A DNA stretch of 56,936 nucleotides, from the NCBI GenBank assembly GCA_000934665.2, contig JYFJ02002443.1, positions 1-56,936 of the forward strand, read 5' to 3'. Shown in pieces: positions 28,501 through 51,596 of the stretch (its first letter is position 1; the number at the start of each line of letters is the position of its first letter). The notes beneath the pieces are model-generated. The model did no database searches and had not been told where the DNA came from. It was given only the letters and a program-made list of their open reading frames with translations. The stretch is from Catajapyx aquilonaris (lineage: Eukaryota). The position numbers and the translations under genes are program-made.

Positions 28501-31500
28501 TGTAGTGTTTGGTTCCGCAACAATAATTCCTCCGACTGTGGTTTATCTTTGAGGAATTTCGCGATTGCGATCTGCAAAGCGTGCCTGATGTCTTTCCATG
28601 GCTATATCTTTCAAATGAATTGATTTGAGCCTTGAAACTTTATGGTCGAGATGGATGAGGATTTCCGCATGGTGTTCCTGGTTACTTTTTTTTAATATTT
28701 ATATTTTGTTGTGTGTACTGTGTACACAAACAATGACAATTTCCGGCCCAGTCGTTATCCAAACTCTTGTATCACCCATTTGATAAATCCTGTCCGTGTA
28801 TATGTAAACCGGCAGCGCATTAAATAACCAACGTTGTTACGGCATTGTGAATAACACATCCATCGGAAGCATCGGATATGGCGACCCAAATTGGATATTT
28901 AAAAAAAAGTGAAATCGGTCGATCATATGTTTGGACACCCTCTGCCTCTTCTGCCAACCAGAACCGACCGACAGGTAGTTTCCATTGGGGGCCAGAAAAG
29001 CATGGAGAAGGGTCAATAGGGTGCCCCCCCACCAGACGAGTGAGTGACTCATGAGGATCGAACTGTTTGGACGAGTTGGTCATCAGCTGTACAACCTGCT
29101 GGGTTTATCTCTGTCAAATGGATTAAGACAGCCATTCACAGCGCTTCTATATCCTGCTGCTCCAGAGATTCCCTCCAACCAGAGCAGTGTGTGAGTTTTT
29201 TGTTTCAACCTGAAGAATGATGCCCGGGTTGTCAGAGTGCTTCGGGTGTGTGGTGGTGAAGAGACGCTTCTGGCTGAGAATGTCCTCCTCTCAGGGGTTC
29301 CCCCAGTGGCTTAGGATATCTAGGAACATTTTCCGTCGTAAGAAACTCGGTGGTGGTGTGATTGCAGTAGGAACGGCTGCTCCGGAAGTGGTGGTCAACA
29401 TAACAGAGGTTTCTGGTGAAGAGGACGGTCACGATGCTAAGGAGCAGCAACAAGAGCAGCAGCAGGAAAAACCCAAGAGGATGCTACGATTGGCCAGGTC
29501 ATGGATTTACTACTGGCAGTGGCGTCGGTGAGTTAATTACTGGAATTGTCATAATTATGCCGCGGAATTGACCAGAGTTGTAATTATGCCGGATGATTAC
29601 GTATGTTTGTCAGTATGGCTTTGGAACTTTCTGTACACAACAGTTTGTGCCATTATTACTGATCTGCAATGAGGCTGCATTTTTTAAAATGATGCCTTAC
29701 GAGCTAAGGCGGATGTTTTGAGTGATTTCATACGTTCATGCTTGAGTAGTAGCACCTGTGTGTTAGTTATATGTTCAACCGTGGTGCTTCAAGACAATAT
29801 GGTGTTGTTTCTTTTCAATGCCGTCATGCCCTCTTGACAGGGCCGTGATATCGTATTGCTGCGCACACCACATCCGTTGTTTGTATCCTATACTTGTATG
29901 TACCGAGAGTCGTTGTTCCTTTTTCCTTATTTGCTGGTTAGTCCGATTGCAACTTGATATAAATTTGCACTCTATTAATAATTTTGGTGGCTGTTGGATT
30001 GTACACTGTTTGGAGATGCCCTTCATGAGGTAAGCGTTTTTTGATGGACACCTCTCATTAACCTACCGCAACTCTATTGTAATTGTCCCGCTCGAGGACA
30101 CTGCATAATGTATGAATTTGTGATTATTACGGAGCGTGCTTGTATATTGTGGCAGAAATGGCACAGACCTACATGCAAGCTTTGCTAAAGGGGATCACTA
30201 GAGTATTGTAAGTATGTTTTTTGAAAATTTGACTCAAGCTGTCAGTGTGCAAAACAGTTCTTGTTTTTATAAAAATATTATGTATAAATTCACTGTGCGC
30301 GTAAATGTTATTACAAAGAGAGAAGCCCTTGTTCGACAAGTGTAATGAAAGCAAATACAATGTAACAGAAAAAGATGCCAGTTGAAGCTATTTCAATAAC
30401 AAAAGGTGGCTCTATTATTGTCATTCTATATGCCAATTGTTTCAATGAGCCATTCCTATAATAGGAAATTCAAATGCAATTCACAGCTTGGGTCTAGAAT
30501 ATATTCAATTTGGGTTGATGTTATAGTACAAATTCTTTTGATTTAAAAAAAATAAGCTGCTTAATGCCAAAAATGGCTAGCCATTAAGATTATTTCAAAT
30601 AATGGCCGGTTCGTGTAAAGGTTGCCTCGAATGGAAATGGAAGTGCACTCAAAATATTTTTGTAACTTTCGGAAAACCATTAAAATTTTTTTTTAAACGT
30701 GTCCGATGAAATATGCAACAGTAATAACATTATTGACATTGGTATAAGGATAATGAATTTTTATGTACCAATACATTTTTGATGCCATCGACTTCCTTTG
30801 TTATCACTATTATTCACCCATTACATTTTTAGATCATCCTGTGTTGCAGTAAAAATAGGCGTAGGCTGGTGAGAAGTACCACTTTGACACCGGTGTAGCT
30901 CTACATGGGCATTTGTAGTATTTTGAGCACAGTAAAATCTTCCCACATCCGCTGCGGTATGGTCATGAAGGCCAGATGTAACGCACTTTGACATTCTCCG
31001 ACGGAAACCTGCAGAATCCAAAAATAGATGGGGTCCAGTCATCATCTGATATCGATAATTAATCGATCAGGTTATCCGGAAATAATTCATATTGTGGTTA
31101 AGAAAATTCTACAGTAGGATGCTTTACGGTCTTGGGAGATAACCTATCTATACTGCTTGTTCAATGTAAATCCTGTATATGTAGCAGGTGCTTACAACGT
31201 ACAGTACGTGTAACCAAGAGCTAATAACAGTCATTAGCTCTTGGTGTAACTGAGAAGAAATTGCCATTTTTTGAGATCGTTGTGCACACTCCAAAAATAC
31301 AGTAAAATGTTAGCTATTTTTTCGCCAATGGATATGAACGGTTGAATTTTGCCAATTTTCAGTAGATTTGATTGTTTAGCATCCCAGATCGATTAAATAC
31401 ATCCGAGGCCAAGTGCGTGTCTCCTCATAAAAATGGGCAATGTTAAGGGATTTCCCTCAAATACAAGTTCCCCCACCTTGTTGTAGTTCATGGCGCCTCG

Positions 31501-34500
31501 ATCGCAAATAAAAAACTGACGAGGTCAGGTTTGCATGAGTCAACTCGTATGGCCAATTAGGAACCAGGTGCTTGCGTCGGCTGAAGTTCCGGAGGCAGGG
31601 AATGATGCTGGAAAAAAAAGAATAGCCATGTGACTGCAGTGGAAAGCAGTCTCCAGTGATCCAGCTTTGCATTTATTTGGTACTTGTACCCTGTGATATA
31701 AAAGTGGGACCAAAAAATGGGTATTCAGAAGAGGACTGCAGCTGTGTCTAGGAATCTGAGATGGAAGTTCAGGGAGAAGATTCCTATGGGGAGGACCATT
31801 AGGGGAATGTTGTGGGATCTGATCAGAATGGGGACTATTCCTAGAGAGGGGTAAGTTGCATGGTTCAACGGCGGGGAAGGGTGGGGTGCAAATTTGGGGG
31901 CCAGATTGTTTCATTGTTCTTTGTCGGCCCGGAGAGAATTGGACACCAAAGCGTGGTTTTTGATGGATCCAAGGCCGAAGAAGAAGGCGTGCATTGCATG
32001 GCCGGCTTTTTCAAGGCTGTGCTCCTCGAACTGTGCCCTCCGGAAAACTGGAAAAAATAATTGTCTACATATTATCCGTTTTTTTTTTTGAGGATGCTAT
32101 TTTTACAGAGATGGACCATGAGAAAATGATATATGTTAAAAGGCGTGGACGTCGCGAAACTTTCGGTGTGTTCGTGTATGTGAAGCAAGTTTTTCCGTTA
32201 TGTTGACGACGGAAACTCCGTTATGAGTAGGTGATGCGTGATAAGGATTATCACATCCTAATTATTGATTTGACATGCAAAGAGGATGGTGTTGACGCAA
32301 AACCTTAATAGGTGAATCACATGACTAGTCCACCTACGCGCTTCTACAAAAATTCCCCGGTGTCTCCTGACCTACCTGTTGGTTGATTTTTACCGTGCAC
32401 TTACTGTAAATGAGTTGTCAGGTGACCATCGATGAAGCGTAAGTGACTTTGTCTCGCTGGAGCAATTATGTGGTTTGTTATTTCTCAGAAAGCATTCCTT
32501 GTACAGTACAAACATTAGAATCAAAAAAAAATTTGCACAGTTTTTTTCTTCTTCTCAAAAACAATAGTGGTAACGTAATGTCTTGTTCTTACCCGAATGT
32601 GCATTACGAAAGCATCTCCTGGAATATGTGATAATTGGACGTGATTCACACAGAGTGTGCCTCTGTGCTGCTAGTACATACTCCACAGTATATGGTCATG
32701 GCTGTCTGCATATAACCGGACGTAACAATGATTTAACAAGGGAGTCAATTTGGCCACTTCACATACGTTGTGTCTGAACCAACTACGTTTTTGATCCTCA
32801 GTTACATCCATGAGTACGACGATACCTTCTTTGAACGGTTCACGTCCATGTGGCTGCCGACTGAGAAGGATGACTTCACCACCTTCGAACCTGCACCACC
32901 GATGCCACTAGAAGAAGCAGAGGAGGCTGACACCCACGAGGAGATGCTGTGGCCCAGTCTTGTCGAATTCCAGGCAAGTACTGATTATGCAGATGATGAC
33001 TAACTGTCCCACGACTGTCAACTCTCCCTCCCCAAATTGACATTTCCCATGAGCTTCTCTCTCTCTGACTAAGTCACACGGCCAGATTTTGCAGTCGGAC
33101 TGTTGCCACCTGTAGGACCTTAGTGAAAATGGCTTGCTGGGCCAAGTGTGCAGCGCTAGTACCTTCAATATAAATAGATTTTGGCACATACGACTTTTTC
33201 TTGCTCTAAAGTGCGATCGGGTTTGTTGGATCGGACTGTTTCCTCTCAGGAGATGAATGTGCTCTGTCGATTTCCGAGTTGACGAAGTGTGAAGTGCGGT
33301 TCTTGTTTCTTTTCCAATGCGGATTATGGGGGACAGGAAGCAAGTGCCTGATAGGCCTCCTAGGAGAGCCAGCAGTGTGATGAAGAAGTGTAATATCTCG
33401 CGGAGTATGTGCACCTTGAAGAGAAAAGTGACCGTAAGTGTCTGTAATGTGCAAAGACTTGCCCTTGAAAAGCAATTGCGCCACCCCGAATTATTAACAG
33501 CCTAATGACACGAAGTGCGGATGACATTTGCGTGTAATTACGATTTGAAGCGATCAAAAAAAATTATGCTGTGCCGCTTGATAAATTCTTAATTACTAAA
33601 AGTATGTTTGTTATCAGTGGAACTTGGCGTCGTCGCATGTACAGTATAGAGAAGTGCGGTCTAAACACATCCTCGAGGTCACTTTCCTGCTGAGTTGGTC
33701 AACCTTGCATCGCCTGGCCAAGGATTATCTAACTCGAGTTAATTTAAGTTAGTGTTCAAGGAAATCGGGATTATTTACAGTGGCATAATTAAATTCGTGG
33801 TAATTCCGTGAAGATAATTACACCTTTTTCCTGTCTGATTATACTAAGGAAGCATTTGATTACATGGCGGATGTGCACTTATTAACGGTGCGATTACAAA
33901 CTATGTATAAATCATCGTGTGACAGAAATAAGTAATTTATATAAACAAATAGAGATGTGAGGGTATATACGATGATGACTCCTTTTAGCAGACTACAGTT
34001 GACAATAACTGTAGCGTGCAAGTGTGGTGACTAAGTATTTGCATCCATGCATGTGTTGATTTTAATGGAACGTACCATGCAAGTTGTATAAGCAATTACA
34101 ATATGTATAACAGCAAGGTGTAATGTATAATTCAACGATTGCAATACACGTATGTTATATCTCGCCTCTCTTTTGTCATTTTCAGCTGGATGATCTGTAC
34201 TCTGAGGTGCTGTACACACTTTTGCATATGATAGGCTGCGACGTGACTGATGGAAAGGACCAGGAGGACCTCATATCGTACCTGCAGGAGGTGTTTAACG
34301 TGGACAGAGAGAAGCACGAGCTGTTGTTCCAAGGGGCTCAGTGCAAGGAGGTATATGTTTGGTCTACCCTTTGCACAGCATATGCGCAGAAACTAAGAAT
34401 AAGTCCGTGTAGGGAGAATTTCCGGTTCTATTTTTTGTGCCACCACATAATTTAGGGGGTAGGGGGTTTAAATATAGGATGGGTGAGATGTACTGTGGCA

Positions 34501-37500
34501 CACTTGGAATCTTGTCGGGTTTACGTTTTGTGATAGAAAAATATAGTGAGTGCAGGTGGGGTTAATTAGGCGCTCGTTATTTTTGGGATTGGGCCAATGC
34601 AGTTGGGCAGAGGTTGTGCTATTTTGCAAGGGCACATGTGTAGGGCAATACTGATCTTGTTAACAAGGTAATGAAGTGTTGATGGACTTTGCTTACGAAT
34701 TAATTATTGTCACACAGGCTCCACAGCTGGTGCTCAATATGGAGGTGACAGAAGCGAAGAATCTGAAAGGGAAAGATGTTAATGGTAAGCGTAATTTATG
34801 GATCACTATTTTCTTTGATTAATTTGTTAATAATTTTTTTGTGTGAAAACAGACTCAAGCGATCCTTTCTGCAACATGTTCATGTCCAGTAATACTCATC
34901 ATAAGCAAAATACATCAATGAAACCAAACACGCTGTCACCCATCTGGAAGGAGTACTTTTCCTTGTATGTCGCCATCACATTAGTTATCTCCTACATCAA
35001 TTGCGATTGTAATGCGTTGCGTCTAATTCCAGCCAAGTAATGAGTCTCCAAGAGGATGTCCTCAGCATTGAGGTTTTGTAAGTACTGGTGTTTTTTTTTT
35101 TTTTTTTTTAAAAGGAGTTGCAAAATTGCATGTAATGATTTTCAGAGATTATGATCCTGAAGAGACTGCAGTGGAGAAGATGAAACGGATTGGTGAAGTG
35201 AAGTCCACCAGAGGCCTCAAAAAACTGGTGAAGGAGATTGCCTTACTCGCATCAACCAAGAAGCAAACACATGATTTTTTAGGGGTTGTCACAGTGCCTA
35301 TGAAGGTGAGCCCTTTTTTTAACCTTTACAAACTGTAGTCAGTGAAACAGTGGAAATTCTTGATTAGATGTTACTGTGACAAAACACCCTTCGATTGCAG
35401 TCAATACCTGCCACGGGCATGGAGAAGTGGTTCCCGCTGCAAGGTCGTGCCAACAACAAAGCCTGCAAAAGGGGTGAAATAAAACTGAAGTTGCATCTTG
35501 GTTCCAAGAAGAACAAGGACGTGGCGATGCAAGAGTACAGGCAACTTCTGCAGCTCTTGTTGATCCATGAGCTCGACTGCTCCAAAGTCGAACCTTACCA
35601 GTGGAACGGCCAGTTGCCTCTCAGTGCCAGGAAGATCCTCTCGCAACATGCAAGTCAGGGGAGCTTAGGCGACACTGACATCATCTTGGCTCAATGGATG
35701 GTGTACAGTCAAGTACACTCGGACCATCCCCTCAGCTACAAACTGTTTCCGCTTTTGTTGGAGAAGTTGCAGAAGGCTATCGAGGAAGGACGGCTCACCG
35801 AAGAGGAGGTTTGTTTACCGGATTGTTCTCATGAACCGTTTTTTAAAGTTCCAATGTTGCAGGAAAGGCGATTTTGGATTGCAGCGGAAAAGCTGACTGA
35901 TAAGACTGTGTTTTTTATAAAACGAATTCATCACCAAAGCCCAACTAACACAAGCTCCGTGTGCATCCAGTTGTACCAGGCGTTAAAGTAAGTCTGTAAT
36001 GTCAGGTGTGAGTGCTCAATGCTCAGTAATTTTTTTAACAAATTTTTTTACAGTACCATGGCCACATTGATCTCATATCTCCCAACCGAAGGATCTGATC
36101 CTCCATCAAACGGCTCAATCTCATGGAAAGTGAGCCCGACAGTGTGTAATATCCAGCAGAAAATTCAGGATGCAGTCAAGGAAGGAGCTGACGAGTTGTA
36201 CGTTTAATTCGTTCATGCCGATTGTCATTACAAGGATTTAATGCTAATTCAATTAAATGTCGCTTACAGTTTATACAGTATTTTTGAGAAGAATCCACTG
36301 CCATCTGAACTTGGCAAGCACAAGCTGGACCAGCTGCTCAACATTTTGAGGCTGGTGATTGCTGATCTCTGCCGAGCTAAAGAGTCATATCACAGCATTT
36401 TTAAAGAGTAAGCGCATCCCGACTTGCTTTCATAACAGTTATCAGATTTGTAGCATGATAATTTAATTTGCAGGTTAGTAGGCGTGAACTTCGTTTCCAT
36501 AACTTGCACTGTGTACGACAGCCAAATAACCCCGTTAGCCAAACCCCTAGTGCTGGACGTATGTGATAAGCTGAAGCCTCTCTCCTTCAACGAGAACAAT
36601 TTGGCAGACAACCTCTCGGGCAACTCTCATCTTCAGATGGGCACAAGACTGTTCACTCTGTACCAGAACCTCCAGCAGATAGTGAGGATGTACTCTTCCA
36701 TGGAAGACATGACGGAGCTAGGGATGCAGGACTTTTACGAGTGGTTCAAAAAGGGGGTGGCCATGTGGCTGGAGATTGCCCTTTTCCAGGCCATGAGGAG
36801 GATATTCAAAGCAGTGCACCTGGACAAGCTGGTTCCCATTGATAAGTTTGTTAAGCACAGCTCTTCGGCCGTTGACACTACCACTATTTTCTATCAGGCA
36901 AGTGAATTTGAATCGATACATTATGTATGAATTGTTTCCATCCATCAGTACAGATCGAGTCTTTTACATTGAACATCACGTGCAATTGCAGATTAAGACA
37001 TTTTGGACTGAGCTTTCCTGGCCAGATGCGGAAGGCAGGTACACATTCGCCACAAAGATTCTTGATGTAAGTACCATTTTAATTGAAGTATTGTGTGATA
37101 TTGATTGCATTTGCATCCCATTGAATTTTTGCCCAGTGGGAAGAAATGTAAGTCCCACTCCTTCAATGTGCTTGCTCAGTTTATCATGTCAGTAACGTTT
37201 TCCCCCCGCTCGTAGGATTTGTGCCGATGCTCAGTGTACTACTGCGAAATGATGTGCAAAAGAGTGGAAGGCGTTCATGGGGAAGACAAGTCTGGGAAGT
37301 ATGAAGTTACCAATGAGTTGTGCTTGGTGATCAACAATATGGACTATGTCCAGGCTGCCATACGACCGTTGGCTAACCACCTGGAGCTGGAAGGAATCAT
37401 CGAGACACTAATGGAGAGGGATGGGACAGACGCAGCAGACCAGTGTCGCAGGACGCTAGACGTTGTCATCAGCAATACTCTCGAGAGCATGGAGAACCAG

Positions 37501-38937
37501 ATCCTTCAAGTGCTTGAGACTGTGGGGAAAAAGGTACGATTAATTCAAAATCAAAGCATACATCGTGCATTGACACTGGACTGATTTGCAGATGGCTCCT
37601 GGAATATACAGGTTCTTGCTGGAAGGTGCGGATGTTGGAAATGACGTGGACAAACTCATGAAGTATTTAGATTCAAACCTGGAGAAGCTTCATGCAAGAC
37701 TGAACAAGAAGAACTTTGACCGCGTCTTTGCAATCGTTTGGGAAAATGCCTCTCAAGCTATTTATGACCTGATTGAGAGCAACATTGATGTAAGTTTAAG
37801 AAAAGTGACATGCACTATCGTATGAGGGCTGGATATAAAAATAGTGGCATCACCTTTACGTCCCTCAGAAACGACGCCCACCTTCCTTCTTCAAAAGCAT
37901 CCATGAAGCAGTGGTGGTTCTGGCCAACTATTTCGAGGCTGACCCAACAGATGAATCGCTGGTGAAGATGCAAGAAATGCTGCTCGTCCACGGCATGGAA
38001 ACTTGGGACCTCATCTTGGCTTACCACCAGGAGAGGCAGCAGGAGCAGGAAGCCATCGAAAAATCAGAGCACGGGATGATCGGAGTGAGAGCACAGATTT
38101 GCGATGACCACCTTAGAATCGAGGTCATGAACGCCAGGCAAATAAAGTCAATGGATTCCAACGGTATGTCTCTTACGCAGCGAACACCATATGATCGAAT
38201 TACTACATGAATAAAAATACACAAAATGTTCATAAAAGGTTACTGGGCACCGTAATAAATTTAGCGCTACGTGCATGTAATAATTTAATAGGTACCTAAA
38301 ACGATACATGAATTAATCTAATTGCATATGATACATGACAGTATAAATTGAGAACAGGAATGATCATTTTGATTTTGCAGGCCTTTGCGATCCGTACATA
38401 AAAATCAACTTGGTGCCAGAAGACAGATTTTCTGCAAACAGCCAGAAAATGAAGACAAAAGTGCAAAAAAAGACTCTGTACCCACTGTTTGATGAGATTT
38501 TCTCAATGTAAGTACTGCACTTGCAAAATGTGGGACCCCCAACAATGATTTGTTTATTTTTTGGTATGCAGCCCATTGACACCTGAGGAGCAGAATGTGA
38601 AGGGCAGCCTAATCCTATTCACACTGAAGGATTACGATGTGTTAGGATCCAACCGCTTCATGGCAGAAGCGTACTTGCCGATGGGTACTGTCCCGAAAAC
38701 AGGTCCTACAACCATGATTCGGGATTTAGACCAGGTTATACTGAACCTGTCACGTCCGATACGTCACGGTGAGTGTCTTTAATCATGGGGAAATGCAAAC
38801 TTCAATTAATGTTAATTTTATTGATGAATATTTCAGATTCAGAGATCCTGAAGGCGTTAGAGAGCCGACAGCAATGGGATCGTGTTGCAAGAGACTTTGC
38901 TAAAAAACAACGGCAAAACATGCCTCCAAGACTCTAA
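25502..38937 (+). CDS. BAIAP3: Munc13-4/BAIAP3-like protein, copy A (C2A-MUN-C2B). Candidate alternative first coding exons 25502-25599, 29217/29280-29527, 31786-31850 and 33326-33433; shared exons from 32802/34186 to the stop at 38937
   Basis: FFERFTSM, LYSEVLYTLLHMIG, C2A EAKNLKGKDVNDSSDPFC, EKWFPLQGR, MUN VKHSSSAVDT and FWTELSWPDAE, C2B MNARQIKSMDSNGLCDPYIKI and FTLKDYD. All traced splice phases are consistent. BAIAP3 versus UNC13D orthology is not resolvable here. Confidence 0.9.
27494..27586. mobile_element. Short Tc1/mariner-type MITE remnant
   Basis: TIR CAGGGTGACCCTGAAGTCTGGA / TCCAGACTTTAGGGTCGCCCTG, TA on the left flank. Confidence 0.6.
31215..31243. mobile_element. 29-bp transposon footprint with a 7-bp TSD (P-element-like ends)
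   Basis: GTGTAAC-[CAAGAGCTAAT AACAGTC ATTAGCTCTTG]-GTGTAAC. Confidence 0.7.
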
Positions 38938-39130
38938 TACTGGCCAGTGTAACGGTATTATTATATTCCTTTGTGTATGCTTGAGGTGAAGACATTTTTT
39001 TAAACCTCTTAGACACTCTGTACACAACACAAGCAGCTTTCCATAAAAATGTATACTACATCTTCATGCTTGGTACTCTTACCAAGGTGTAGAGCATAAT
39101 CAAATAAAAAGGACGCATTTTTGTTTTTCT

Positions 39131-40391
39131 TCAACAGAAAAGAGAATCGAGAAAGTCATTCATTTTTTCTTCCTCGTCCTTTTCCTCAACCTTAACCGGT
39201 CCTTTCCATAAGCTTTCACTGTCCATCTCCTCCGCTTTGTCCTCTTCCTTCGAGGTGCCTTCCTCCCCCGTGTCCATCCTGCGATCCCTCTTATCCTTCC
39301 CCTTCTTTTTAGATATCCGACCATCTTCATCCACACCTCGGAGAGGATCCTTTTTGGAAGAAGATCTGCGAGCTTGGCGGTGCTTATGGTGGGAGTTCAG
39401 CTTAGACGAACATCCCGGACACAACTCTGTAAGAACCAACGTTTCATTCGAGGCAAGTTATTTATCGACTTGAATTTAGTGCGCCGCTTACTAAGCTTGA
39501 CAAGTGCATTTTTCTTAGTGTCCCTCTCCTTGTAGCAAAAGTTGACTTCCCAGGAGGTGAGGGTGTTCGACTCGGTGCATCTCTTCTCCCCACAGACGAA
39601 CTGCCCTTTCCCGTCTATGACCTCCTGTTCCGTCCTCCACCTAAGCGCCAAGCGTTTGGTCTCGCGGTACTGGCTCAGGTCAGAGATGCAAAACTCCTTA
39701 AAGAGCTTATCGTAGTAACGCTTGGCCAGCCGTTTCTCCCAGCCCTGCGCATCCTCGTCCTCCTCCCACAGGAACTGGTGGTGCTCTCGAATCACATCTA
39801 TGTCACGCTTGTCACGGGAACTGCAATGAATTAGGATGAAATTCACGCAAAACGTTCGTGCCGCATTTGCACTCACGTGTCTCTGAGGGGTAGCTTCGCC
39901 TCCTTGCTGTACAGATAGTACGTATTGATAAGCTGCACATGCTTCTCGTACTCGGTAAGTCCTCGCCATTCCCAGTAGTTCCTCCGACCCTCCTTGTCCA
40001 CCTCCGCTCTGAAGAATGACTTCGACGCAACCCCTACGCCAGAAAGAAAATTGCAATGATACTAATTATGCCAAAATGTATGAAGTACCAATGTGTACAC
40101 AATGTTGATGAGTATGTCGCTTCATTGATAATTAATAAATTAATATCATAATTAGTTTCAGTTGTGAATTTTACACTCTTACGTTGTGGTTGAGGTCTGG
40201 CCGCCTTCTGAGCCAGATCCTGCCTCTTCTGCTTGGCTTCGTCTTCCTCCTCGTCTTCGAACGCATCGTCGTAACCCCCTGCATCGGCCTTAATCAGAAA
40301 ATGAGCCTGCTAATTGCCCTAATTACCTAAAAACAAGTAGTGTTAATCATCATTTTTCGCTCACCTTTGAGAAGTCCATGGGCGCCGCCAT
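39131..40391 (-). CDS. FRA10AC1: FRA10AC1 (folate-sensitive fragile site protein homolog, spliceosome-associated), 5 exons
   Basis: DKRDIDVIREHHQFLW, WEKRLAKRYYDKLFKEFCISDLS, LRWRTEQEVIDGKGQFVCG, SWEVNFCYKE..KKNALVKL|.LCPGCSSKLN and C-terminal DFLDSLF. Confidence 0.93.
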
Positions 40392-40817
40392 GTTGGATTT
40401 GTTCGGAACTTCAACCCGGATCCGTTAGATGGCAGTGCTTGCAAAGAGGCCTACCGTATATATTGCTGTACCGTATTTGGCCACTATAATAATTAGAAAA
40501 TCGTGTTAAAATTAGTATGATAATTTTTTGGTACATCTTTAAATAGCAATAATGACTCCAGCGGCGGGATATGAGATAATTCATATAAGACCTGCATTTC
40601 CTTTCTGAGATCAACCGCGACCTTCCTGTGTGCAAGTGATTGTGCAAAAAGGTCACAGTGGTTTTGAAGAAAGAGATGTTTGTTGCCAATTTATCTCCAC
40701 TGGGTTTCCACATTAATCACGGTGTGAGGAGTGGCTTATTTCTTGGAATGCAGTTCCAAGTGGCCTATATATGCCTGGAGCAAGAGCAGTTAAGAAAAGG
40801 AGAAGCAGGTGTCGATA

Positions 40818-43800
40818 ATGGGAAGGACCTATTGTGGCATGTTGTGGGATCTACTCAGTTTGGGGAGTGTTCCTAGAGAAGGGTGAATATAATTCATATC
40901 CAAACTGGATGTTGAAGCTATGGATTAATTTATTTCCAAATTAGTGTCAAAACCTTACATGCAAATTTTCAAAAGGTGGCCCACAGAAGTTGCGTTCATG
41001 CTGGTGATATCTTGGACCGATTCAAGTCGACATGGCTGCCTATGGACGACTTCACTGCTATTGAGCCAGCGGTGACACTGACACAGCCAGATGAAGAAGC
41101 TGAGGAAGTGGATACCAATGGAGAAGTGTTGTGGCCCAGTCTGGTCCCTCAGGTATGTAACATATGATTGTCATGTTTCAAAAGTTGCCAATGGATTGTG
41201 ATTTGAATATTTCAGTCAGATGACTTGTACTCTGAAGTTCTGCACACATTGGTACATATGATTGGCTGTGATGTGACTGACAAAAAGGACCAGGCTGGCC
41301 TCATATCACACCTGCAAAAGGCGTTTAACGTTGACAATGATGTGCATGAGAAATTGTTGCAAGCGACACGATGCAAGGAGGTATGTTGGTTGGGTAAATG
41401 CTTTCTAATCACTGGCTTTAGGATATGTATTAAATTAATTTTGAATTGATTTAATATCATGCTTTGCCGAAAAAGGAATATATTTTTTCATATGTATGGT
41501 GAGTCCTAAAAGTTATACTACCTGTGGAGCATATTATTATAATAATTTGATGGTGATGATAATAATGATTGACTATTATTCTGTCATGTAGGCACCTCAC
41601 TTGGAGCTCAAAGTGCAAGTTACAGAAGCAAGGAATTTGAGAAGCAAGGATGTTAATGGTGATTATCGTAATTACTTTATTAATTTTTACCTAGATATAA
41701 TTATCTAAATATGTTATTGTCTTGGTGGGTACAGATTCAAGCAATCCTTTCTGCATCTTGTCAATATCCAGTAACATTAACCATAATCAATCCACGTCTG
41801 TGAAACAAAACACGCTGTCACCAGTCTGGAAAGAAGATTTTTCATTGTGTGTATGTAACTAATTAATATTTTTTTCATAAGCTACTAACATATGTTACGT
41901 TTCAGCCCCATGACCATTGTTCAAGAGGATGTTTTACACATTGAAGTGCTGTGAGTATTCGGTTGTACTACCTCTAAAATACTATAAGATGAATGATGCA
42001 TTTTTTGATATGATTTTGATAATATTGGTCCGCAGGGATTATGATTATGAGGATACTGTTGTGGACAAATTGAAACGAATTGGTGATGTCAAATCACCTA
42101 GAGGCTTCAAAATATTAGTGAAGGAAGTTGCATTCTTTAATAAGTCAAGCCATAACTTTTTAGGCGCTGTGACAATTCCAACAAATGTGAGTAACCTTTA
42201 GTCAATAATTATATTGCATATGCAAATAACTTCAATTTACAGCAAAGACACTCTTTAATTCCAGTCCATACCAAGCACAGGTTTGGAGGAGTGGTTTCCT
42301 CTTCAAGGACAAACTAGGAAAAAAACAAGACACAGAGGCGAGATAAAACTGAAATTGAGATTGTGCACAGGAAAGGATAAGGATGAGGCACTGCAACAAT
42401 TCAGGCAATTGTTGCAACTTCTCCTGAGATACACCCTGACCTGCTCTGAAATTAAACGGCCGTACCAGTGGATCAACCAGTTTCCTCCGAAGACCACGAG
42501 GATCCTGTCACAACAGGCCTGTCACGGAAACTTAAGCGACACTGACATTGCCTTAGCCAAGTGGACAGTGTACAGCGAGGTCCACTTGAAGCATCATCTT
42601 AACTACCAAGTGTTTAATCTGCTGCTGGAGAAGCTGCAAAAGCCAATCCAGGATGGAAAGCTCACTGAAGATGAGGTCGGGTTTTTTATACTGTATATAA
42701 TGCTTGCAGTTTTCTAGTCTAGTAAAACATTGCCTTCTGCGCAGGAATTGAGATTTTGGACTGCAGCAAACATGCTGGTTAATGAGACTATGATTTTTAT
42801 AAAACGACTTCACCACCAAAGTGCACGTGCGACCAAACTTGCTTGCATCCAACTGCATGAAGCACTGAAGTAAGCATTTATTTTTAAACATGTTATGTAT
42901 TTATTTGCATTAATGACTTTAATTTTTCTTTAGGACCATGGCGACTTTGATCATGTATCTTCCTGAGGAATGGACTGATTCTTCAATAAACTGGAATGTG
43001 AGGCCAGTGTGCAAAATTTATCAGAAAATTAGAGATGCAGCGAAGACAGGAGCTGAGGAATTGTGAGATACATGACTGTTTTTTTAAATTACATATTTTG
43101 AATGTAAAAAAACTAATATCGCAATTACAGCTTAGACAGCATTTTCGAGAAGAACCCCTTGACCTCTGAAATTGATAAGCCAAAACTGAACGAGCTGCTC
43201 AACATTGTCAGGCTTGTGACAGCTGATCTTCGCCGGACTAAACAGTCATATCGCTGCATATTTTATGAGTGAGTTGAGATGTCATTTTCATGTGGTATAG
43301 CATCAAGACAATTCAATGACCTATCATTAAATCTATAGGCTGTTGGATGTGGATTATTTTGCCATCATTTGCGCTGTGTATGACAGCAAAATCACTCCTT
43401 TAATCAAATCTCTGGTGATGGACATATGCAACAAACTGAAACCACTCTCTTTAAACGAGAGCAAGATTTCTCTGGACTCGTTTTACAAAACCCAGCTACA
43501 GATGAGCATGGGTCTGTTCACTCTGTACCAGGATCTGCTTGTGGCCAGGATGAGTTCCTGCCAGGAAAATGCGCAGGACTTTTACGAATGGTTCAAGCAA
43601 GGTGTGGCCATATGGTTGGACATTGCCCATCTTCAAGCTAAGACATACATAGTCAGAGCAGTGCAGAAAGACACGATGGTCACAGTGGATGAACATGTCA
43701 AGCACAGCTCCTCTGCAGTTGATACAATCATTATTTTACATCAGGCAAGCTTAGTAAATTTTGCTAGCAGAAATTCATGTAATTTGCATAATTTTTCCAT

Positions 43801-45585
43801 GTAGTTACAGATTAAAACGTTTTGGACTCAGATTGAGACATGGCCTGATTTGGAATGCAGGTACACATTTGCAACCAAGATAATTGATGTAAGTACTGAT
43901 TCACTATTAAATGCATGTCTCGCAATGTGTGCATTTGTAAAATAATAATTTTTGTAATTCAGGATCTGTCCCAATGCTTGACCCACTATTGCAAACTGAT
44001 GTGGGAAAGGATGCGAGATTTCCAGATTAAATCTGGAAGGTATGCAGTGATTAGAGAGTTGGGATTGGCCATCAACAACATGGATTTTGTCCAGGACGCA
44101 TTGAGGCCAAACACCAACATCCTGGAGCTGGAAGGTCTAATAGACACACTCGCAGAAAGGGACGGACAAGAAAAAGCACAACAACATATTGCTTACATTC
44201 TGGGAGGAATAGAGAAGCAGATCCAACGCAGGATGGATTATGTTGGACAAATGGTTTGTGTTTCTTTAAAAAGTTAATTGTTAATCAATAATTTCGAATT
44301 AATTACAGATGGCCCGAGAGGTGTACAAGTTCATGTCTGAAGGCGCTACTCTTGGAAATGATGTTGACGGACTCATAGCTTATTTGTCTTCAAACTGGAA
44401 CAATCTTCACTATTACGTTAACAAAAAGAGGAGTGAATATTTTTTTGCGATTCTCTGGGCAAATGTCTTGCATGTTATTTTGTACCTCATCAATAACAAC
44501 CTATATGTAAGTCTATAGAATTTTTGAATGAATTATCTCATGAAACTCTCACCAGAAGTCAAATGAAAATCCAGTCTAATATTACAGCAGTTTTGACACA
44601 TTTAATCGTATTTTGTTGTCCCACAGAACCAACGCTCACCTTCATTCTTCAAGAACATCCATGAAGCCGTGAGAGTCTTGATAAACTTTTTTGAAGCAGA
44701 CCCAATGGAGAAGTCCCTGCAAAAGATTCAGAATGTTCTTCTAATTCATGGTATGGACACTTGGGACATCATACAGGCCTACCATCACCAGAGGCATCAT
44801 GAACAGGAAGACATGGCACATTCCGAACATGGAACGATAGCAGTGAAGGCTCATATATGTGGCAACCATCTGAAGATAGAGGTCATGAACGCCGGTCAGA
44901 TCAGGCCAGTGGATTCCAGTGGTGAGTTTTGCAGATTCAGCTGCATTGTTGATAGTCGTCTGAGAAAAGTAATTATCAAACTCGTCGCCTCCTATAGGTA
45001 GTTGTAATCCGTACGTACAAATCACATTAGTACCTGAAGGAAGATTTTCAGCAAAATGCCAGAAAATGAAGACGAGAGTGCAAAAAGAGTACTATCTCCA
45101 CCCTCTGTTTGAGGAAAGCTTTTCCATGTGAGTTCGTAACAACAATACAGTGTGCTCATTGATAATGTTTATAAAAAATGTGTTTACAATATGCAGCCCG
45201 CTAATACCTGAAGAAATGAGCATGAAGGGCAACTTCATCATGTTTACATTGAAGCACAGTGGGCTATTGGGTTGTAGAGGACTCTTCAGGACGGAGAGAT
45301 GCAGCCGATTCATGGCAGAGGCTTACTTGCCAATTGATACTATTCCAAGGACAGATGGTACAGGATTATTTCAGGATTTAGAACCGGTTGTTCTGGCCTT
45401 GTCGCAGCCCACACCACATGGTGAGACAATGTTGAGGCGACATAACGAGCGGAAATTTAAATTGGTAAAAAATTACAGATTCTGTGCTCCTGAAAGTGCT
45501 GCAAAGTCGAGAGAAGTGGGATCACGTGGCAAGGGACTTCCTAAAAAATCGGATGAAAAACATGTCACAAAGGAATATAGCCTGA
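40818..45585 (+). CDS. Munc13-4/BAIAP3-like protein, copy B (divergent tandem paralog, reading frame intact)
   Basis: Exon-for-exon homology to copy A with the same intron phases. Starts MGRTYCGMLWDLLSLGSVPREG (40818-40882) and ends ...KNMSQRNIA*. No frameshift or premature stop found in the exons traced. Confidence 0.88.
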
Positions 45586-45724
45586 ATATTTCCATAGTGT
45601 ATGTGCACCATTAAATTGCTTTGTATGTCCATATTCAGTTTTTTTTTTTCAAATCGTACGTTATTCCCTAATAGTGAGCACAAAAAATTTTTTTACGCGC
45701 TTACATGTTGGCTACATTCTCTAC

Positions 45725-45738
45725 GATTGCTAGGCAAC
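45725..45738. promoter_or_regulatory. RFX X-box-like motif upstream of DPCD
   Basis: Reverse strand reads GTTGCCTAGCAATC, about 55 bp upstream of the ATG. Confidence 0.6.
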
Positions 45739-45791
45739 ATGCTATTGGCACCCCCTTGTTTATTTTGGAATTTTATTTGGAAGCGGGAAGC

Positions 45792-46754
45792 ATGGCGTGG
45801 CTCGCATCCTTGAAGGAGGCGAAGAAATCTGTGGTCGTGGAAAATGGTGAGTGTTCAACTGCTGGTTAAAAAAAAAACACTGGTACGTAATCCGCGCAAT
45901 TGACCCGTAAAACTATTTTGCGGAGTTCGGACCAGGTTTTGCAGGTATTGTTCCTTCTGGATCCTTCCATAGTTGTTTGATCAATAACTCTTGCCTTTCA
46001 TGCTCCTCATACATTGGGACCAGTTGCTATGGATCGCTTCTTTTTTTTTTGAACCACCCTGTAATGCTGTTGTGTGTTTCAGGCGTGCAAAAGGTGCACT
46101 ATTTGTTCCCTGATGGGAGCGACATGATGGAGGACTATGACGAGAAGACCAACCTTCTGATCTTGAGGGCACGGCGACAGAGGCATCCCATAAGGGGCAC
46201 CGCTGTAGTCGAGGTGGAAGTCGGCGAGATGTCCGGATCTAGAAAGATGACCGAGTTGGACGAACTGGACATCAGACAGACAGTCGGACAGGTAAAACAC
46301 TTGTAATGCAAAGTGAGTGCACAGTCTTATTTGTCTTATTAATCGCAGCCGCACATGATACGTCGCGACAATGTGTTCTCGTTCGAATGGAGGATCCGAA
46401 ACCTTCCGTACAAGCCGGACAACTTCATTGTCACAGCAGACAACGTCAAGAAGTGCCTGGAGGTTCGGACCAAGAATAGGAAGTTCTACAAGCAGATCAG
46501 GATACCGGATATGGACAGGGTAGGAGCCGCATACAAGCAGGAGAAGATCAGTTTCCTGCACAAGAACAACACCCTCATCATCTCCGTGAGTTATATACCT
46601 CGATTAGCAATGTCTTCTTTGAGCTGAGCTTGTTGGTTCATGTTGGCAGTATGAAAAGCCAGGAGAGGTTATGCAGCTGGAGAGAGAGGTTAAGACAATG
46701 CTGGCTTCGATCAAGGGTACAGGAAGAGGAAACAGCGAGTGTAAGACCAACTGA
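45792..46754 (+). CDS. DPCD: DPCD protein (deleted in primary ciliary dyskinesia; RUVBL/R2TP-associated), 4 exons
   Basis: MAWLASLKEAKKS...G|VQKVHYLFPDGSDMMEDYDEKT, FEWRIRNLPY, VRTKNRKFYKQIRIPDMDR and HKNNTLIIS|YEKP...ECKTN*. Confidence 0.93.
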
Positions 46755-50095: not shown

Positions 50096-51004
50096 CACAC
50101 ATTGCATGAAATACTGCAAAACCTGCGCAACGAACGGACAATATGTCTGTGTTTGCGCGGAAATGCCCACAACACGAATAATATTTTAAATATTATAGAC
50201 AGAGTGTTCAAATTTATCTGAGAATAGCCTGCCTGCTGTAGTAATGAAGCCTTCCAACGCAATTTCACACTGTAAATAGCTGTATCACTTGATTCTATAG
50301 ACGAAACCGTTTCTCAACCCTGCCAATTCAGCCAATAATGATTTCAAAGGCCACTTTTTTCTGAATAGACAGTTCCGGGATGGCGTGTGTCACGACCTCG
50401 CACAAAAGGGAGCATAAATCACCACAGGGGGAAGACTACAATGCCCTGAGAGAAAAAAACAACAAGGCTGTCATCTGACTCGAAGCAATTGAAAAATCTG
50501 TTAGAGCTCCCCATTTTACCTTAAGATTGAATCTTTTTTTTTGAGGGGGTGGAAAAACTGAAGGTAGATACCATTGGACCTTCATCCCATCCCTGATCCT
50601 GTGTGTCTCTCTCTCCTTTTTCTCTCTTTTATATACCATCCTCCTATTCCTACTACTCTTTCCCTCCACCATTTATTTCGGGCTCGGAATCCAAATGTCC
50701 CTCCGTATTTCATTTGCATAGGAGGGAGGGACGGAGAGGGAAGGAGAAAAAAAATGGTTGGGAGGGTGGGGAGGAAGAGAAGAAAAAAAAAAATCAGACA
50801 CCTGTGAGATGAAAGTCCGGGCCGCTTCGTCTCCCAGGGCGTTTGTATTTCTTGCTTCCAAATAGCGGCATGTCAGGCTCGCAGTTAATGGAAAGGAAGA
50901 ACAAAATAACATCTCATTTAGGACTTGCAAAGAAGAAGAAGAAGAAAAAAACAGGTGGATTGTCACCCTCCAACAAAGCAAGGAAAACGAAGGAAATGGG
51001 TATA

Positions 51005-51040
51005 AAGAAGAAGAAGAAGAAGAAGAAGAAGAAGAAGAAG
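51005..51040. repeat. (AAG)n microsatellite
   Basis: About 12 perfect AAG units. Confidence 0.95.
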
Positions 51041-51596
51041 ACACAAAAAATAAAGAGAGAAGATCAATTGGGGACAAATGTAAATGTCGCACGGAGACGG
51101 CGTTTATCATTGGAGAGTTGCTGGTTTTTTGGGATGAGACGGGGGCCATCTGCATTCGGAAGAGAGACCCTGCCGTTATCAAGCTGCCAAGGAATCCCCG
51201 GGATTCATTTGCATATTGAGCGCATGTGTGATTTGGCCTCTTCCAAGCAGCAGAGGAAGAAGAAAACGAGGCTTCGGTCTCCAGCACATTTGCATTATTC
51301 TACCGCGTGCTTCTGTGCAAAAAGAACAACCGCATTTTTTTTTAGCTGAAAATGGCCAATGCTACAGGAGTTTCATGAAGGAAAATAACCCAACATTGCG
51401 TCTGCAATTGTAATCGTATAATATTAAAATCCCATTCATGTTGTATGGTTATGCATTCTGATTGGTCCACCGCATATTGTTACCGCGACGCTTCCGATTG
51501 GCCCCCATCACACAACAATACCAGTAAAGAGCGTTCTTTATGTTGTCACTGTTTTGTTGAGGTCATTTCCATGCAACAGCATTCATGACACTGTAG

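What the first reader, a model, noticed from the sequence alone, without database searches (positions are those of the whole stretch)
40818..45585. Intact Munc13-4/BAIAP3 paralog with Ca2+-ligand aspartates substituted in both C2 domains
Seen: copy B keeps every exon and an open frame. The C2A loop-1 Asp is Asn (copy A SDPFC, GAT 34861; copy B SNPFC, AAT 41743). The C2B loop-1 Asp is also Asn (A CDPY, GAT 38389; B CNPY, AAT 45006). C2B loop-3 DYD (38630-38638) becomes HSG (45255-45263), followed by a 9-residue insertion. C2A loop-3 DYD is retained. Known: these Asp residues coordinate Ca2+ in C2 domains, and D-to-N changes there are the standard way to disable Ca2+-dependent Munc13-4 activity. 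Inference: a Ca2+-insensitive priming/tethering factor, or a dominant-negative regulator, sitting next to its Ca2+-sensing parent as a two-gene exocytosis system.
Basis: partly seen in the sequence, partly recalled or inferred. Interest (0 to 1): 0.8.

Follow-up and report, generated by a model that had tools for sequence, protein, structure and literature searches.

The report
Calcium-ligand-poor duplicate of unc-13-4 gene
An invertebrate genome carries two neighbouring copies of a vesicle-priming gene of the Munc13-4/unc-13-4 family. The faster-evolving copy is intact and transcribed but has lost half of the aspartates that normally hold calcium, so it probably works without calcium. This is an interesting but not unprecedented fate for a gene duplicate.

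Summary
Copy B (40818-45585, + strand) is a 19-exon, 1099-codon open gene with the same exon phases as copy A. The cited codons are exactly as described: AAT 41743, AAT 45006, HSG 45255-45263, and a 27-nt insertion. I add a third D-to-N change, in C2A loop 3 (A HDFLG, B HNFLG, AAC 42154).

Eight Asp positions are invariant in 11 conservative relatives and in A. B keeps 4 of them: 3 of 4 in C2A and 1 of 4 in C2B.

B is not decaying:
- Pairwise dN/dS is 0.20-0.25.
- Codon-position identity is 73/80/53%.
- All exon length differences are multiples of 3.
- 0 of 2000 neutral simulations stay open.
- Spliced contigs of a public run cover its 3' half.

B does evolve faster than A. Its unique changes are 1.6-2.8 times A's, and its tree branch is 0.54 against 0.11.

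The window is not vertebrate. Both copies fall in the arthropod-type 'unc-13 homolog 4B' (staccato) clade, and they are each other's closest relatives.

Best reading: B is a constrained, diverged paralog. Its C2B cannot bind Ca2+ canonically and has gained basic loop residues, so it likely acts as a Ca2+-independent tether or priming factor. The 'two-gene system' and 'dominant-negative' ideas have no support. Similar Asp-poor '4B-like' paralogs exist in insects and springtails.

The parts
40818..45585 (+). Copy B gene. Nineteen exons: 40818-40882, 40990-41152, 41216-41380, 41592-41658, 41735-41846, 41906-41950, 42036-42186, 42265-42675, 42745-42869, 42934-43062, 43131-43268, 43339-43744, 43811-43888, 43963-44253, 44309-44506, 44627-44921, 44998-45127, 45197-45420, 45479-45585. 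1099 aa, stop TGA at 45583-45585.
   Evidence: Homology-guided model. The frame is open. Junctions 43888/43963 and 44253/44309 are seen in a spliced contig. Exon 1 and the exon 2 acceptor are not supported by RNA.
41592..42312 (+). Copy B C2A domain (introns included). Ligand positions: D151 (41649), N157 (AAT 41743), D207 (42037), D209 (42043), N246 (AAC 42154).
   Evidence: Pfam C2 hit on the exon piece, 30.0 bits. Family alignment. Coordinates.
44846..45486 (+). Copy B C2B domain (introns included). Ligand positions: D944 (44912), N950 (AAT 45006), H1010 and G1012 (45255-45263). The polybasic beta3-beta4 stretch is retained.
   Evidence: Pfam C2 hit, 24 bits. Family alignment. Coordinates. 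Loop charges.
45273..45299 (+). B-specific 9-residue insertion in C2B loop 3 (CRGLFRTER). It adds three Arg and one Glu.
   Evidence: Pairwise alignment. No relative has a comparable insert. Exon 18 is 27 nt longer in B.
43339..44506 (+). Copy B central MUN region (exons 12-15).
   Evidence: Pfam MUN hit on the exon-12 piece: E = 0.00037, 20.1 bits, below the 24.2 cut-off. Full-length blastp to unc-13 homolog 4B proteins.
29481..38937 (+). Copy A gene, the conservative sister copy. Nineteen exons, 1105 aa from the ATG at 29481; the frame is open back to 29214. All 8 invariant Asp are present, plus D246. Stop TAA at 38935-38937.
   Evidence: Spliced contigs give 11 junctions. Model. 5' exon located. 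Ligand coordinates.
39100..40400 (-). Fra10Ac1-family gene lying between the two copies, tail-to-tail with A and head-to-head with B.
   Evidence: Pfam PF09725, 150 bits. Spliced in run X1 with CT..AC joints at 39820/39877 and 40032/40182.
45911..46624 (+). Start of a DPCD-family gene directly downstream of B.
   Evidence: Pfam PF14913 on two ORF pieces, 45.8 and 104 bits.

Best explanation
Copy B is a functional, transcribed, faster-evolving sister copy of copy A. It arose by an old local duplication of an unc-13-4B/staccato-type C2-MUN-C2 vesicle tethering and priming gene. Its folds and MUN core remain under purifying selection. Its C2B has lost 3 of the 4 invariant Ca2+-coordinating Asp and gained a basic 9-residue loop-3 insertion, and its C2A has lost 2 of 5 acidic ligands.

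Most likely mechanism (inferred, not shown): C2B no longer binds Ca2+ in the canonical pocket. Instead it contacts acidic membranes constitutively through the retained polybasic strand and the now positively charged top loops. B would then act as a Ca2+-independent, or at most weakly Ca2+-modulated, tether or priming factor, and A would remain the Ca2+-triggered one.

Shown: intactness, constraint, rate asymmetry, the substitutions, and transcription of the 3' half. Inferred: loss of Ca2+ binding, constitutive membrane binding, and division of labour with A.
For: Open frame and splice sites:
- 19 exons and 1099 codons with no stop; 18 of 18 introns have GT/GC-AG ends.
- All 10 exons that differ in length between A and B (exons 2-19) differ by multiples of 3 (exon 19 corrected to +6 with A's stop at 38935-38937).
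- Random substitution of A's CDS left 0 of 2000 simulated sequences open, even at only 200 changes. The observed difference is 1013 nt.

Selection:
- dN is 0.25-0.29, dS is 0.92-1.37, and the ratio is 0.20-0.28 by four methods.
- Identity by codon position is 73, 80 and 53%.
- By region, the C2A ratio is about 0.17 and the C2B ratio 0.15-0.18, no higher than MUN at 0.26-0.30.
- Given that A matches the family consensus, B's retention rises from 59% in the least conserved columns to 86% in the most conserved.
- Introns are no more alike than shuffled introns (0.78 against 0.77).

Transcription: contigs of run X1 that are 100% identical to the window skip GT..AG introns of B at 43888/43963 and 44253/44309, and cover bins 43688-45635.

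Ligand loss:
- Eight Asp columns are D in 11 of 11 conservative relatives and in A. B has D,N,D,D in C2A and D,N,H,G in C2B.
- The C2A fifth position is D or E in 10 of 11 relatives and N in B.
- The 'CDPY' Asp aligns with the SDPY Asp of synaptotagmin C2 domains. Through the Tribolium relative it also aligns with the loop-1 Asp pair of solved human Munc13-4, 9la9.
- Neutralising the loop-1 Asp pairs in human Munc13-4 cut Ca2+ sensitivity about 10-fold (PMC3328385).

Charge: the C2B loop 1 plus loop 3 segments go from net -2 in A to +3 in B. The polybasic strand stays at +4 against +5 in A.
Against: - No Ca2+ binding or membrane binding was measured or modelled.
- B keeps the first loop-1 Asp in both domains and the DxD of C2A, so C2A may still bind Ca2+ weakly.
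- RNA support covers only the 3' half of B, from one small run of unrecorded library type. The 5' exons and the start codon are predictions.
- B has also lost 5 other invariant residues (L677I, C730G, L830W, F842S, T996Y, in A numbering). It evolves faster than A overall. Part of the Asp loss may therefore be general relaxation; the enrichment test is only p = 0.03.
- The 11 'conservative' relatives were chosen after I had seen the alignment. The 5 divergent paralogs and one isoform row were left out of that count.
- No ortholog of B from another species was found, so selection on the B branch alone could not be estimated. Splitting dN by the rate asymmetry gives roughly 0.3-0.4 for B, which is my inference.
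Confidence: 0.5

Rival explanations
1. B is still a Ca2+ sensor, with lower affinity or altered stoichiometry. C2A keeps D151, D207 and D209, and Asn side chains can still ligate Ca2+ through their carbonyl oxygen. B would then respond to higher or more local Ca2+ rather than being insensitive.
For: B keeps 3 of 4 invariant Asp in C2A and the first loop-1 Asp in C2B. The engineered human mutants that lose function change both loop-1 Asp, not one. The C2A region of the pair is strongly constrained, with a ratio of about 0.17.
Against: C2B keeps only 1 of 4 invariant Asp, and H and G cannot substitute for the DxD pair. In C2A the second and the fifth ligand positions are both neutralised. From recall of synaptotagmin-1 C2A structures, those two touch all three Ca2+ sites between them.
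Confidence: 0.22
2. B is a redundant duplicate under relaxed constraint, drifting towards loss. The Asp changes are early damage, not adaptation.
For: B carries 1.6-2.8 times more unique changes than A against all 11 outgroups (chi-square 6.0-38.4). Its branch is 0.54 against 0.11. It keeps 94 of 117 near-invariant columns against A's 105. Invariant MUN residues are also changed.
Against: dS is about 1.2 and the introns are saturated, so the duplication is old. Even so, there is no stop, no frameshift and no lost splice site in 3.3 kb, and 0 of 2000 neutral simulations stay open. Third codon positions are far more diverged than first and second. Retention tracks family conservation. The gene is spliced and transcribed.
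Confidence: 0.12
3. B is a dominant-negative or competitive regulator. It would occupy the same Rab, SNARE or membrane sites as A without responding to Ca2+, and so damp A-dependent exocytosis.
For: The MUN region and the overall architecture are retained, so shared partners are plausible. Both genes appear in the same run.
Against: There is no direct evidence. No interaction, co-expression in one cell type or stoichiometry data exist. Contig depth cannot rank expression. Adjacency is explained by tandem origin.
Confidence: 0.08

Closest known systems
Human Munc13-4 (UNC13D; solved structure 9la9) and its engineered C2A* (D127N/D133N) and C2B* (D941N/D947N) mutants
   Same: Both have C2A-MUN-C2B architecture. 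An insect relative of A and B matches 9la9 at E = 3e-87. B carries Asn at the positions that align with D133 and D947. The engineered mutants lose Ca2+-dependent lipid and SNARE binding and fusion (PMC3328385).
   Different: B is a natural gene of an invertebrate. It keeps the Asp that align with D127 and D941. It additionally lacks the C2B loop-3 DxD and the fifth C2A ligand, and it has a 9-residue basic insertion. It lies in a different clade from the proteins named munc13-4 or BAIAP3-like.
Arthropod 'protein unc-13 homolog 4B' (Drosophila Staccato type)
   Same: These are the best full-length matches. A is 36-38% and B 30-32% identical over about 1000-1140 residues to the Topomyia, Coccinella and Gryllus proteins and an unnamed Logan protein. 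A and B fall in this clade. They share the short C2A beta3-beta4 loop.
   Different: The conservative members keep all 8 Asp. A and B share G-to-D and W-to-L changes in C2A that these proteins lack. Staccato's role in tracheal tube fusion is recalled from the literature, and only search listings were seen.
Annotated 'unc-13 homolog 4B-like' divergent paralogs: Anopheles (P0098), Episyrphus (P0069), Planococcus (P0071), Orchesella (P0085, P0027)
   Same: These are extra copies beside a conservative 4B gene. They sit on long branches of 0.52-1.86 and lack several of the 8 Asp. Examples are Orchesella SNPF in C2A loop 1, Episyrphus N at C2B D2, and Orchesella G at C2B D4.
   Different: They are independent duplications, since each groups with its own lineage and B groups with A. 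The sets of lost Asp differ. None has B's loop-3 insertion. I found no functional study of any of them.
Ca2+-independent C2 domains in paralog families (for example Munc13-1 C2A and C2C, and several synaptotagmins); recalled, not tested here
   Same: The principle is the same: a C2 fold is kept while the acidic pocket is lost, and membrane or protein binding becomes Ca2+-independent. A paper on Ca2+-independent C2 domains appeared in a search listing (PMC8507603, abstract only).
   Different: Those are long-established family members. Here the change is seen in a lineage-specific duplicate lying next to its Ca2+-competent sister.

Membership tests
Munc13-4 / BAIAP3 / unc-13-4 family (C2-MUN-C2 priming factors) | N-terminal C2, central MUN (MHD1/MHD2) region and C-terminal C2, in that order | tested here: met
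   Pfam C2 hits above cut-off on exon pieces at both ends of A and of B (24-30 bits; cut-off 22). A MUN hit on the B exon-12 piece scores 20.1 bits, below the 24.2 cut-off. The spliced proteins could not be given to Pfam. End-to-end blastp of B to unc-13 homolog 4B proteins covers residues 53-1095.
Munc13-4 / BAIAP3 / unc-13-4 family (C2-MUN-C2 priming factors) | Significant full-length sequence similarity to named members | tested here: met
   B against P0009 (unc-13 homolog 4B, Topomyia): 32% identity over 1090 residues, 526 bits. A against the same protein: 37%, 748 bits. The relative P0134 matches human Munc13-4 9la9 at E = 3e-87.
Munc13-4 / BAIAP3 / unc-13-4 family (C2-MUN-C2 priming factors) | Canonical Ca2+-coordinating Asp in loops 1 and 3 of both C2 domains | tested here: not met
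   A has 8 of 8. B has 4 of 8 (C2A: D,N,D,D; C2B: D,N,H,G), and its fifth C2A ligand is N. This feature defines the Ca2+-sensing activity, not homology. B is a homolog that fails the sensor signature.
Munc13-4 / BAIAP3 / unc-13-4 family (C2-MUN-C2 priming factors) | Ca2+-dependent phospholipid and SNARE binding, and stimulation of fusion | not testable with these tools
   This needs recombinant protein assays like those in PMC3328385.
unc-13 homolog 4B (staccato) subclade versus the BAIAP3-like/munc13-4-named subclade | Placement in a family tree | tested here: met
   Quick IQ-TREE of 24 rows. A and B are sisters (SH-aLRT 100) inside the group holding the insect and springtail 4B proteins. That group is separated from the group holding Antedon BAIAP3-like, Ixodes munc13-4, Strigamia and Oscarella (98) (names). 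The careful search did not finish, the root is at the midpoint only, and no vertebrate sequence is in the tree.
Unprocessed pseudogene (decaying tandem duplicate) | Stops, frameshifts, lost splice sites, dN/dS near 1, no transcript | tested here: not met
   No stop or frameshift, and 18 of 18 introns have intact ends. The dN/dS ratio is 0.20-0.28. Spliced contigs exist.

The most novel reading that the evidence does not exclude
Asp-poor copies of unc-13-4B have arisen repeatedly and independently: here, in Anopheles, in a hoverfly, in a mealybug and in springtails. Each has been kept under selection. Together they would define an unrecognised functional class of constitutive, Ca2+-independent MUN-domain tethers working beside the Ca2+-triggered copy. 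B would be an especially clear case, because its acidic C2B pocket has been replaced by a basic loop that mimics the Ca2+-bound state.
Probability: 0.2. Interest if true: 0.55.

Novelty: new variant of a known kind. Interest (0 to 1): 0.36.

Why it matters
Munc13-4-type proteins are studied as Ca2+ sensors for lysosome-related organelle and granule exocytosis, and the main tool for separating their Ca2+-dependent roles is the engineered Asp-to-Asn mutant. A natural, selected copy carrying comparable and more extensive changes next to an unchanged sister gives a ready-made comparison. It could show which functions of the C2-MUN-C2 scaffold survive without canonical Ca2+ binding. The apparent recurrence in insects suggests this is a regular evolutionary outcome rather than an accident. 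It is still an ordinary fate for a duplicated C2-domain gene, and Ca2+-independent C2 domains are well known, so a specialist would be interested but not astonished.

Tried and rejected
- Whole-genome search: no genome is held for this window.
- Orthologs of B:
  - A word-index search with B exon 8 in 'longer' mode scored 0 of 271 candidates.
  - An exhaustive HMMER search with B exon 12 found 116 proteins. The best was only 44% identical, and none was closer to B than to A.
  - The same word-index search with A exon 12 found 2 arthropod proteins at 44-46% identity.
  - No species with an ortholog of B could therefore be identified, and no branch-specific dN/dS was possible.
- Taxon: the ACADSB-like ORF is 53-73% identical to fish, insect, crustacean, mollusc and cnidarian proteins alike among the 120 listed of 8000 scored. 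I conclude only 'metazoan, not a sampled vertebrate'. The family tree leans towards arthropods.
- RNA runs: no RNA holder is listed. One run of unrecorded kind holds 20% of the words. Once laid, its contigs proved to be spliced.
- B bins 40766-43687 have no cover in that run. I draw no conclusion from this.
- Contig depths (A 26.3, B 6.5) were not used to rank expression, as the tool instructs.
The claim that the C2 folds are kept rests on sequence conservation only.
- The intron-identity figures use a lenient global aligner, so only the comparison with shuffled introns is meaningful.
- The careful tree search did not finish in two 300-s runs. The quick tree is reported.
- Earlier-findings look-ups returned nothing.
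- Literature searches for natural Ca2+-insensitive Munc13-4, BAIAP3 or unc-13-4 paralogs returned nothing relevant in the listings.
- I first read ATG 29501 as A's start. I rejected it because the donor lies one base further on, which puts that ATG out of frame.
Full report
**What is in the sequence**

| Site | Copy A | Copy B |
|---|---|---|
| C2A loop 1 | SDPF, GAT 34861 | SNPF, AAT 41743 |
| C2B loop 1 | CDPY, GAT 38389 | CNPY, AAT 45006 |
| C2B loop 3 | DYD, 38630-38638 | HSG, 45255-45263 |

The two regions align to each other on the + strand in 9 blastn segments of 65-78% identity. Pfam finds C2 domains in exon pieces at both ends of both copies. It also finds a sub-threshold MUN match in B: 20.1 bits against a cut-off of 24.2. 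In all, 5 of the 14 pieces had a hit.

**Gene models**

One public run of unrecorded library type holds part of the region. When laid on 32000-46600, its contigs are 100% identical to the window (14 of 14 in the 99+ class). They skip GT..AG introns, or CT..AC introns for the minus-strand gene, so they derive from spliced RNA.

- These contigs give 11 junctions of copy A directly, including one GC-AG intron. With the remaining 5' exons read from the sequence, A is a 19-exon gene of 1105 codons.
- A's 5' exon lies at 29481-29527, in a frame open back to 29214. An alternative 5' exon ends at 25599.
- For B, I searched for the best-scoring AG...GT/GC exon homologous to each A exon with the same phase, placed the last exon by hand, and corrected exon 1.
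- The B model has 19 exons, 3300 nt and 1099 codons. It has no internal stop, 17 GT-AG introns and one GC-AG intron at the same position as in A, and a TGA at 45583-45585.
- Two B junctions (43888/43963 and 44253/44309) are confirmed by a spliced 389-nt contig.
- B's exon 1 and the exact acceptor of exon 2 are predictions only.
- A and B are 58% identical (627 of 1075 aligned residues).

**The Ca2+ ligand positions**

I aligned A and B with 17 relatives. Eleven of them are conservative, full-length members. I chose these 11 after seeing the alignment. Five divergent paralogs and one isoform row were left out of the count.

In those 11 and in A, the first four canonical Asp positions of each C2 domain are D without exception.

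| Domain | Copy A | Copy B |
|---|---|---|
| C2A, positions 1-4 | D148, D154, D204, D206 | D151, N157, D207, D209 |
| C2A, position 5 | D246 | N246 (AAC 42154) |
| C2B, positions 1-4 | D962, D968, D1027, D1029 | D944, N950, H1010, G1012 |

- The fifth C2A position is D or E in 10 of the 11 relatives.
- B C2B also carries a 9-residue insertion (45273-45299) that no relative has.
- The CDPY Asp aligns with the SDPY Asp of synaptotagmin C2 domains in PDB searches.
- The Tribolium relative aligns its loop-1 Asp pair with that of solved human Munc13-4, 9la9.
- In human Munc13-4, changing that pair to Asn in C2A (D127N/D133N) or in C2B (D941N/D947N) raised the Ca2+ half-maximum about 10-fold and abolished Ca2+-dependent activities (PMC3328385, passages read).
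- B carries the change at the second Asp of each pair only.

**Is B decaying?**

The evidence says it is not.

- Pairwise dN is 0.25-0.29 and dS is 0.92-1.37, giving a ratio of 0.20-0.28 with NG86, LWL85, YN00 and ML.
- Identity is 73%, 80% and 53% at codon positions 1, 2 and 3.
- Homologous introns are no more alike than shuffled introns: 0.78 against 0.77 under the same lenient aligner. Neutral sites are therefore saturated and the duplication is old.
- All 10 exons (2-19) that differ in length do so by multiples of 3 (with exon 19 corrected).
- Random substitution of A's CDS produced on average 8.5 stops at 200 changes and 24 at 700. None of 2000 runs stayed open at any level. The observed difference is 1013 nt.
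- By region, the two C2 domains are at least as constrained as the MUN region (ratios about 0.15-0.18 against 0.26-0.30).

**B evolves faster than A**

- In all 45 of the 45 best-scoring relatives listed, A scores higher than B.
- Tajima-type counts against each of 11 outgroups give 66-126 changes unique to B and 26-59 unique to A, with chi-square 6.0-38.4.
- In a quick IQ-TREE of 24 rows, A and B are sisters (SH-aLRT 100) with branches of 0.11 and 0.54. The rows were A, B and the 22 relatives with the longest coverage.
- B keeps 94 of 117 near-invariant columns against A's 105. Its retention rises with conservation, from 59% to 86%. That is the pattern expected under relaxed but real purifying selection.
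- Of 48 columns invariant in the 11 relatives and in A, B differs at 9. Four of these are Asp ligands (4 of 8, against 5 of 40 elsewhere; p = 0.03). The other five are L677I, C730G, L830W, F842S and T996Y.
- The ligand loss is therefore somewhat concentrated, but it is not the only erosion.

**What family, and what organism**

- The nearest named proteins are arthropod 'protein unc-13 homolog 4B', at 36-38% identity to A.
- The tree puts A and B with springtail and insect 4B proteins. They sit apart from a group with crinoid 'BAI1-associated protein 3-like', tick 'munc13-4', centipede and sponge proteins.
- The protein collection does contain vertebrates. The window's ACADSB-like ORF is only 53-73% identical to them, and equally close to invertebrates. 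The window is therefore not from a sampled vertebrate.
- Neighbouring genes are Fra10Ac1 (minus strand, between A and B), DPCD (downstream), and Cfap43, RNase HII, cullin, ACADSB-like and SRR1 (upstream).

**Mechanism**

*Shown:* B is an old, intact, constrained and transcribed sister copy with 4 of 8 invariant Asp replaced.

*Inferred:* C2B, with 1 of 4 Asp left, cannot form the canonical Ca2+ pocket.

- Its loop 1 plus loop 3 segments change from net charge -2 in A to +3 in B, while the polybasic beta3-beta4 stretch is kept at +4 against +5.
- This would favour constitutive binding to acidic membranes, resembling the Ca2+-bound electrostatic state.
- C2A keeps 3 of 5 acidic ligands and may retain weak Ca2+ binding.
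- I rate 'Ca2+-independent or weakly modulated tether/priming factor' at about 0.5. I rate a lower-affinity sensor at 0.22, drift towards loss at 0.12, and a dominant-negative role at 0.08.
- Nothing supports a coordinated 'two-gene system'. The adjacency is what tandem duplication leaves behind.

**Novelty**

- Degenerate, Ca2+-independent C2 domains are common in paralog families (recalled).
- Annotated '4B-like' paralogs of Anopheles, Episyrphus, Planococcus and Orchesella also lack several of the 8 Asp and sit on long branches.
- Four literature searches found no study of such natural copies in their listings.
- I classify B as a new variant of a known kind, of moderate interest.

Noticed in passing
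window 39100-40400, minus strand: A Fra10Ac1-family gene (Pfam, 150 bits) lies between the two unc-13-4 copies. It is spliced in run X1. Its 5' end (about 40.38 kb) is head-to-head with copy B's predicted ATG (40818), which suggests a short shared bidirectional promoter region.
   Followed up: partly
window 36898 (A) and 43745 (B); also 32974 (A) against 41153 (B): A GC-AG intron is conserved at the homologous position in both copies. A has a second GC donor after exon 2, where B has GT.
   Followed up: partly
window 25570-25599 and 29214-29527: Copy A transcripts in run X1 join exon 2 (32802) to two alternative upstream exons. One ends at 29527, in a frame open back to 29214 with several in-frame ATGs. 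The other ends at 25599, more than 7 kb upstream. This could be an alternative promoter or read-through from the upstream gene.
   Followed up: partly
A residues 151 and 203, B residues 154 and 206 (window about 34784/34853-34854 and 35077/35146 in A): Both copies share Asp in place of the loop-1 Gly of C2A (G in 11 of 11 relatives). Both also share Leu in place of the Trp before the loop-3 DxD (W in 10 of 11). Even the conservative copy therefore has an unusual C2A.
   Followed up: no
relatives P0098, P0069, P0071, P0085, P0027: Annotated 'unc-13 homolog 4B-like' or unnamed paralogs of Anopheles, Episyrphus, Planococcus and Orchesella lack several of the 8 canonical Asp and have long branches. 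Asp-poor duplicates seem to recur in this family.
   Followed up: partly
window 3474-24043: Upstream gene content: SRR1-domain gene, a weak kinase-like ORF, an ACADSB-like gene as a single 392-codon ORF (5929-7104, minus strand), cullin, RNase HII, and a Cfap43-like gene (minus strand). Several of these genes have few introns or only very short ones.
   Followed up: partly
window 50600-51350 and 53228: There are low-complexity runs (poly-Lys/Glu/Ser-type ORFs and microsatellite-like tracts) around 50.6-51.3 kb. A single N sits at 53228.
   Followed up: no
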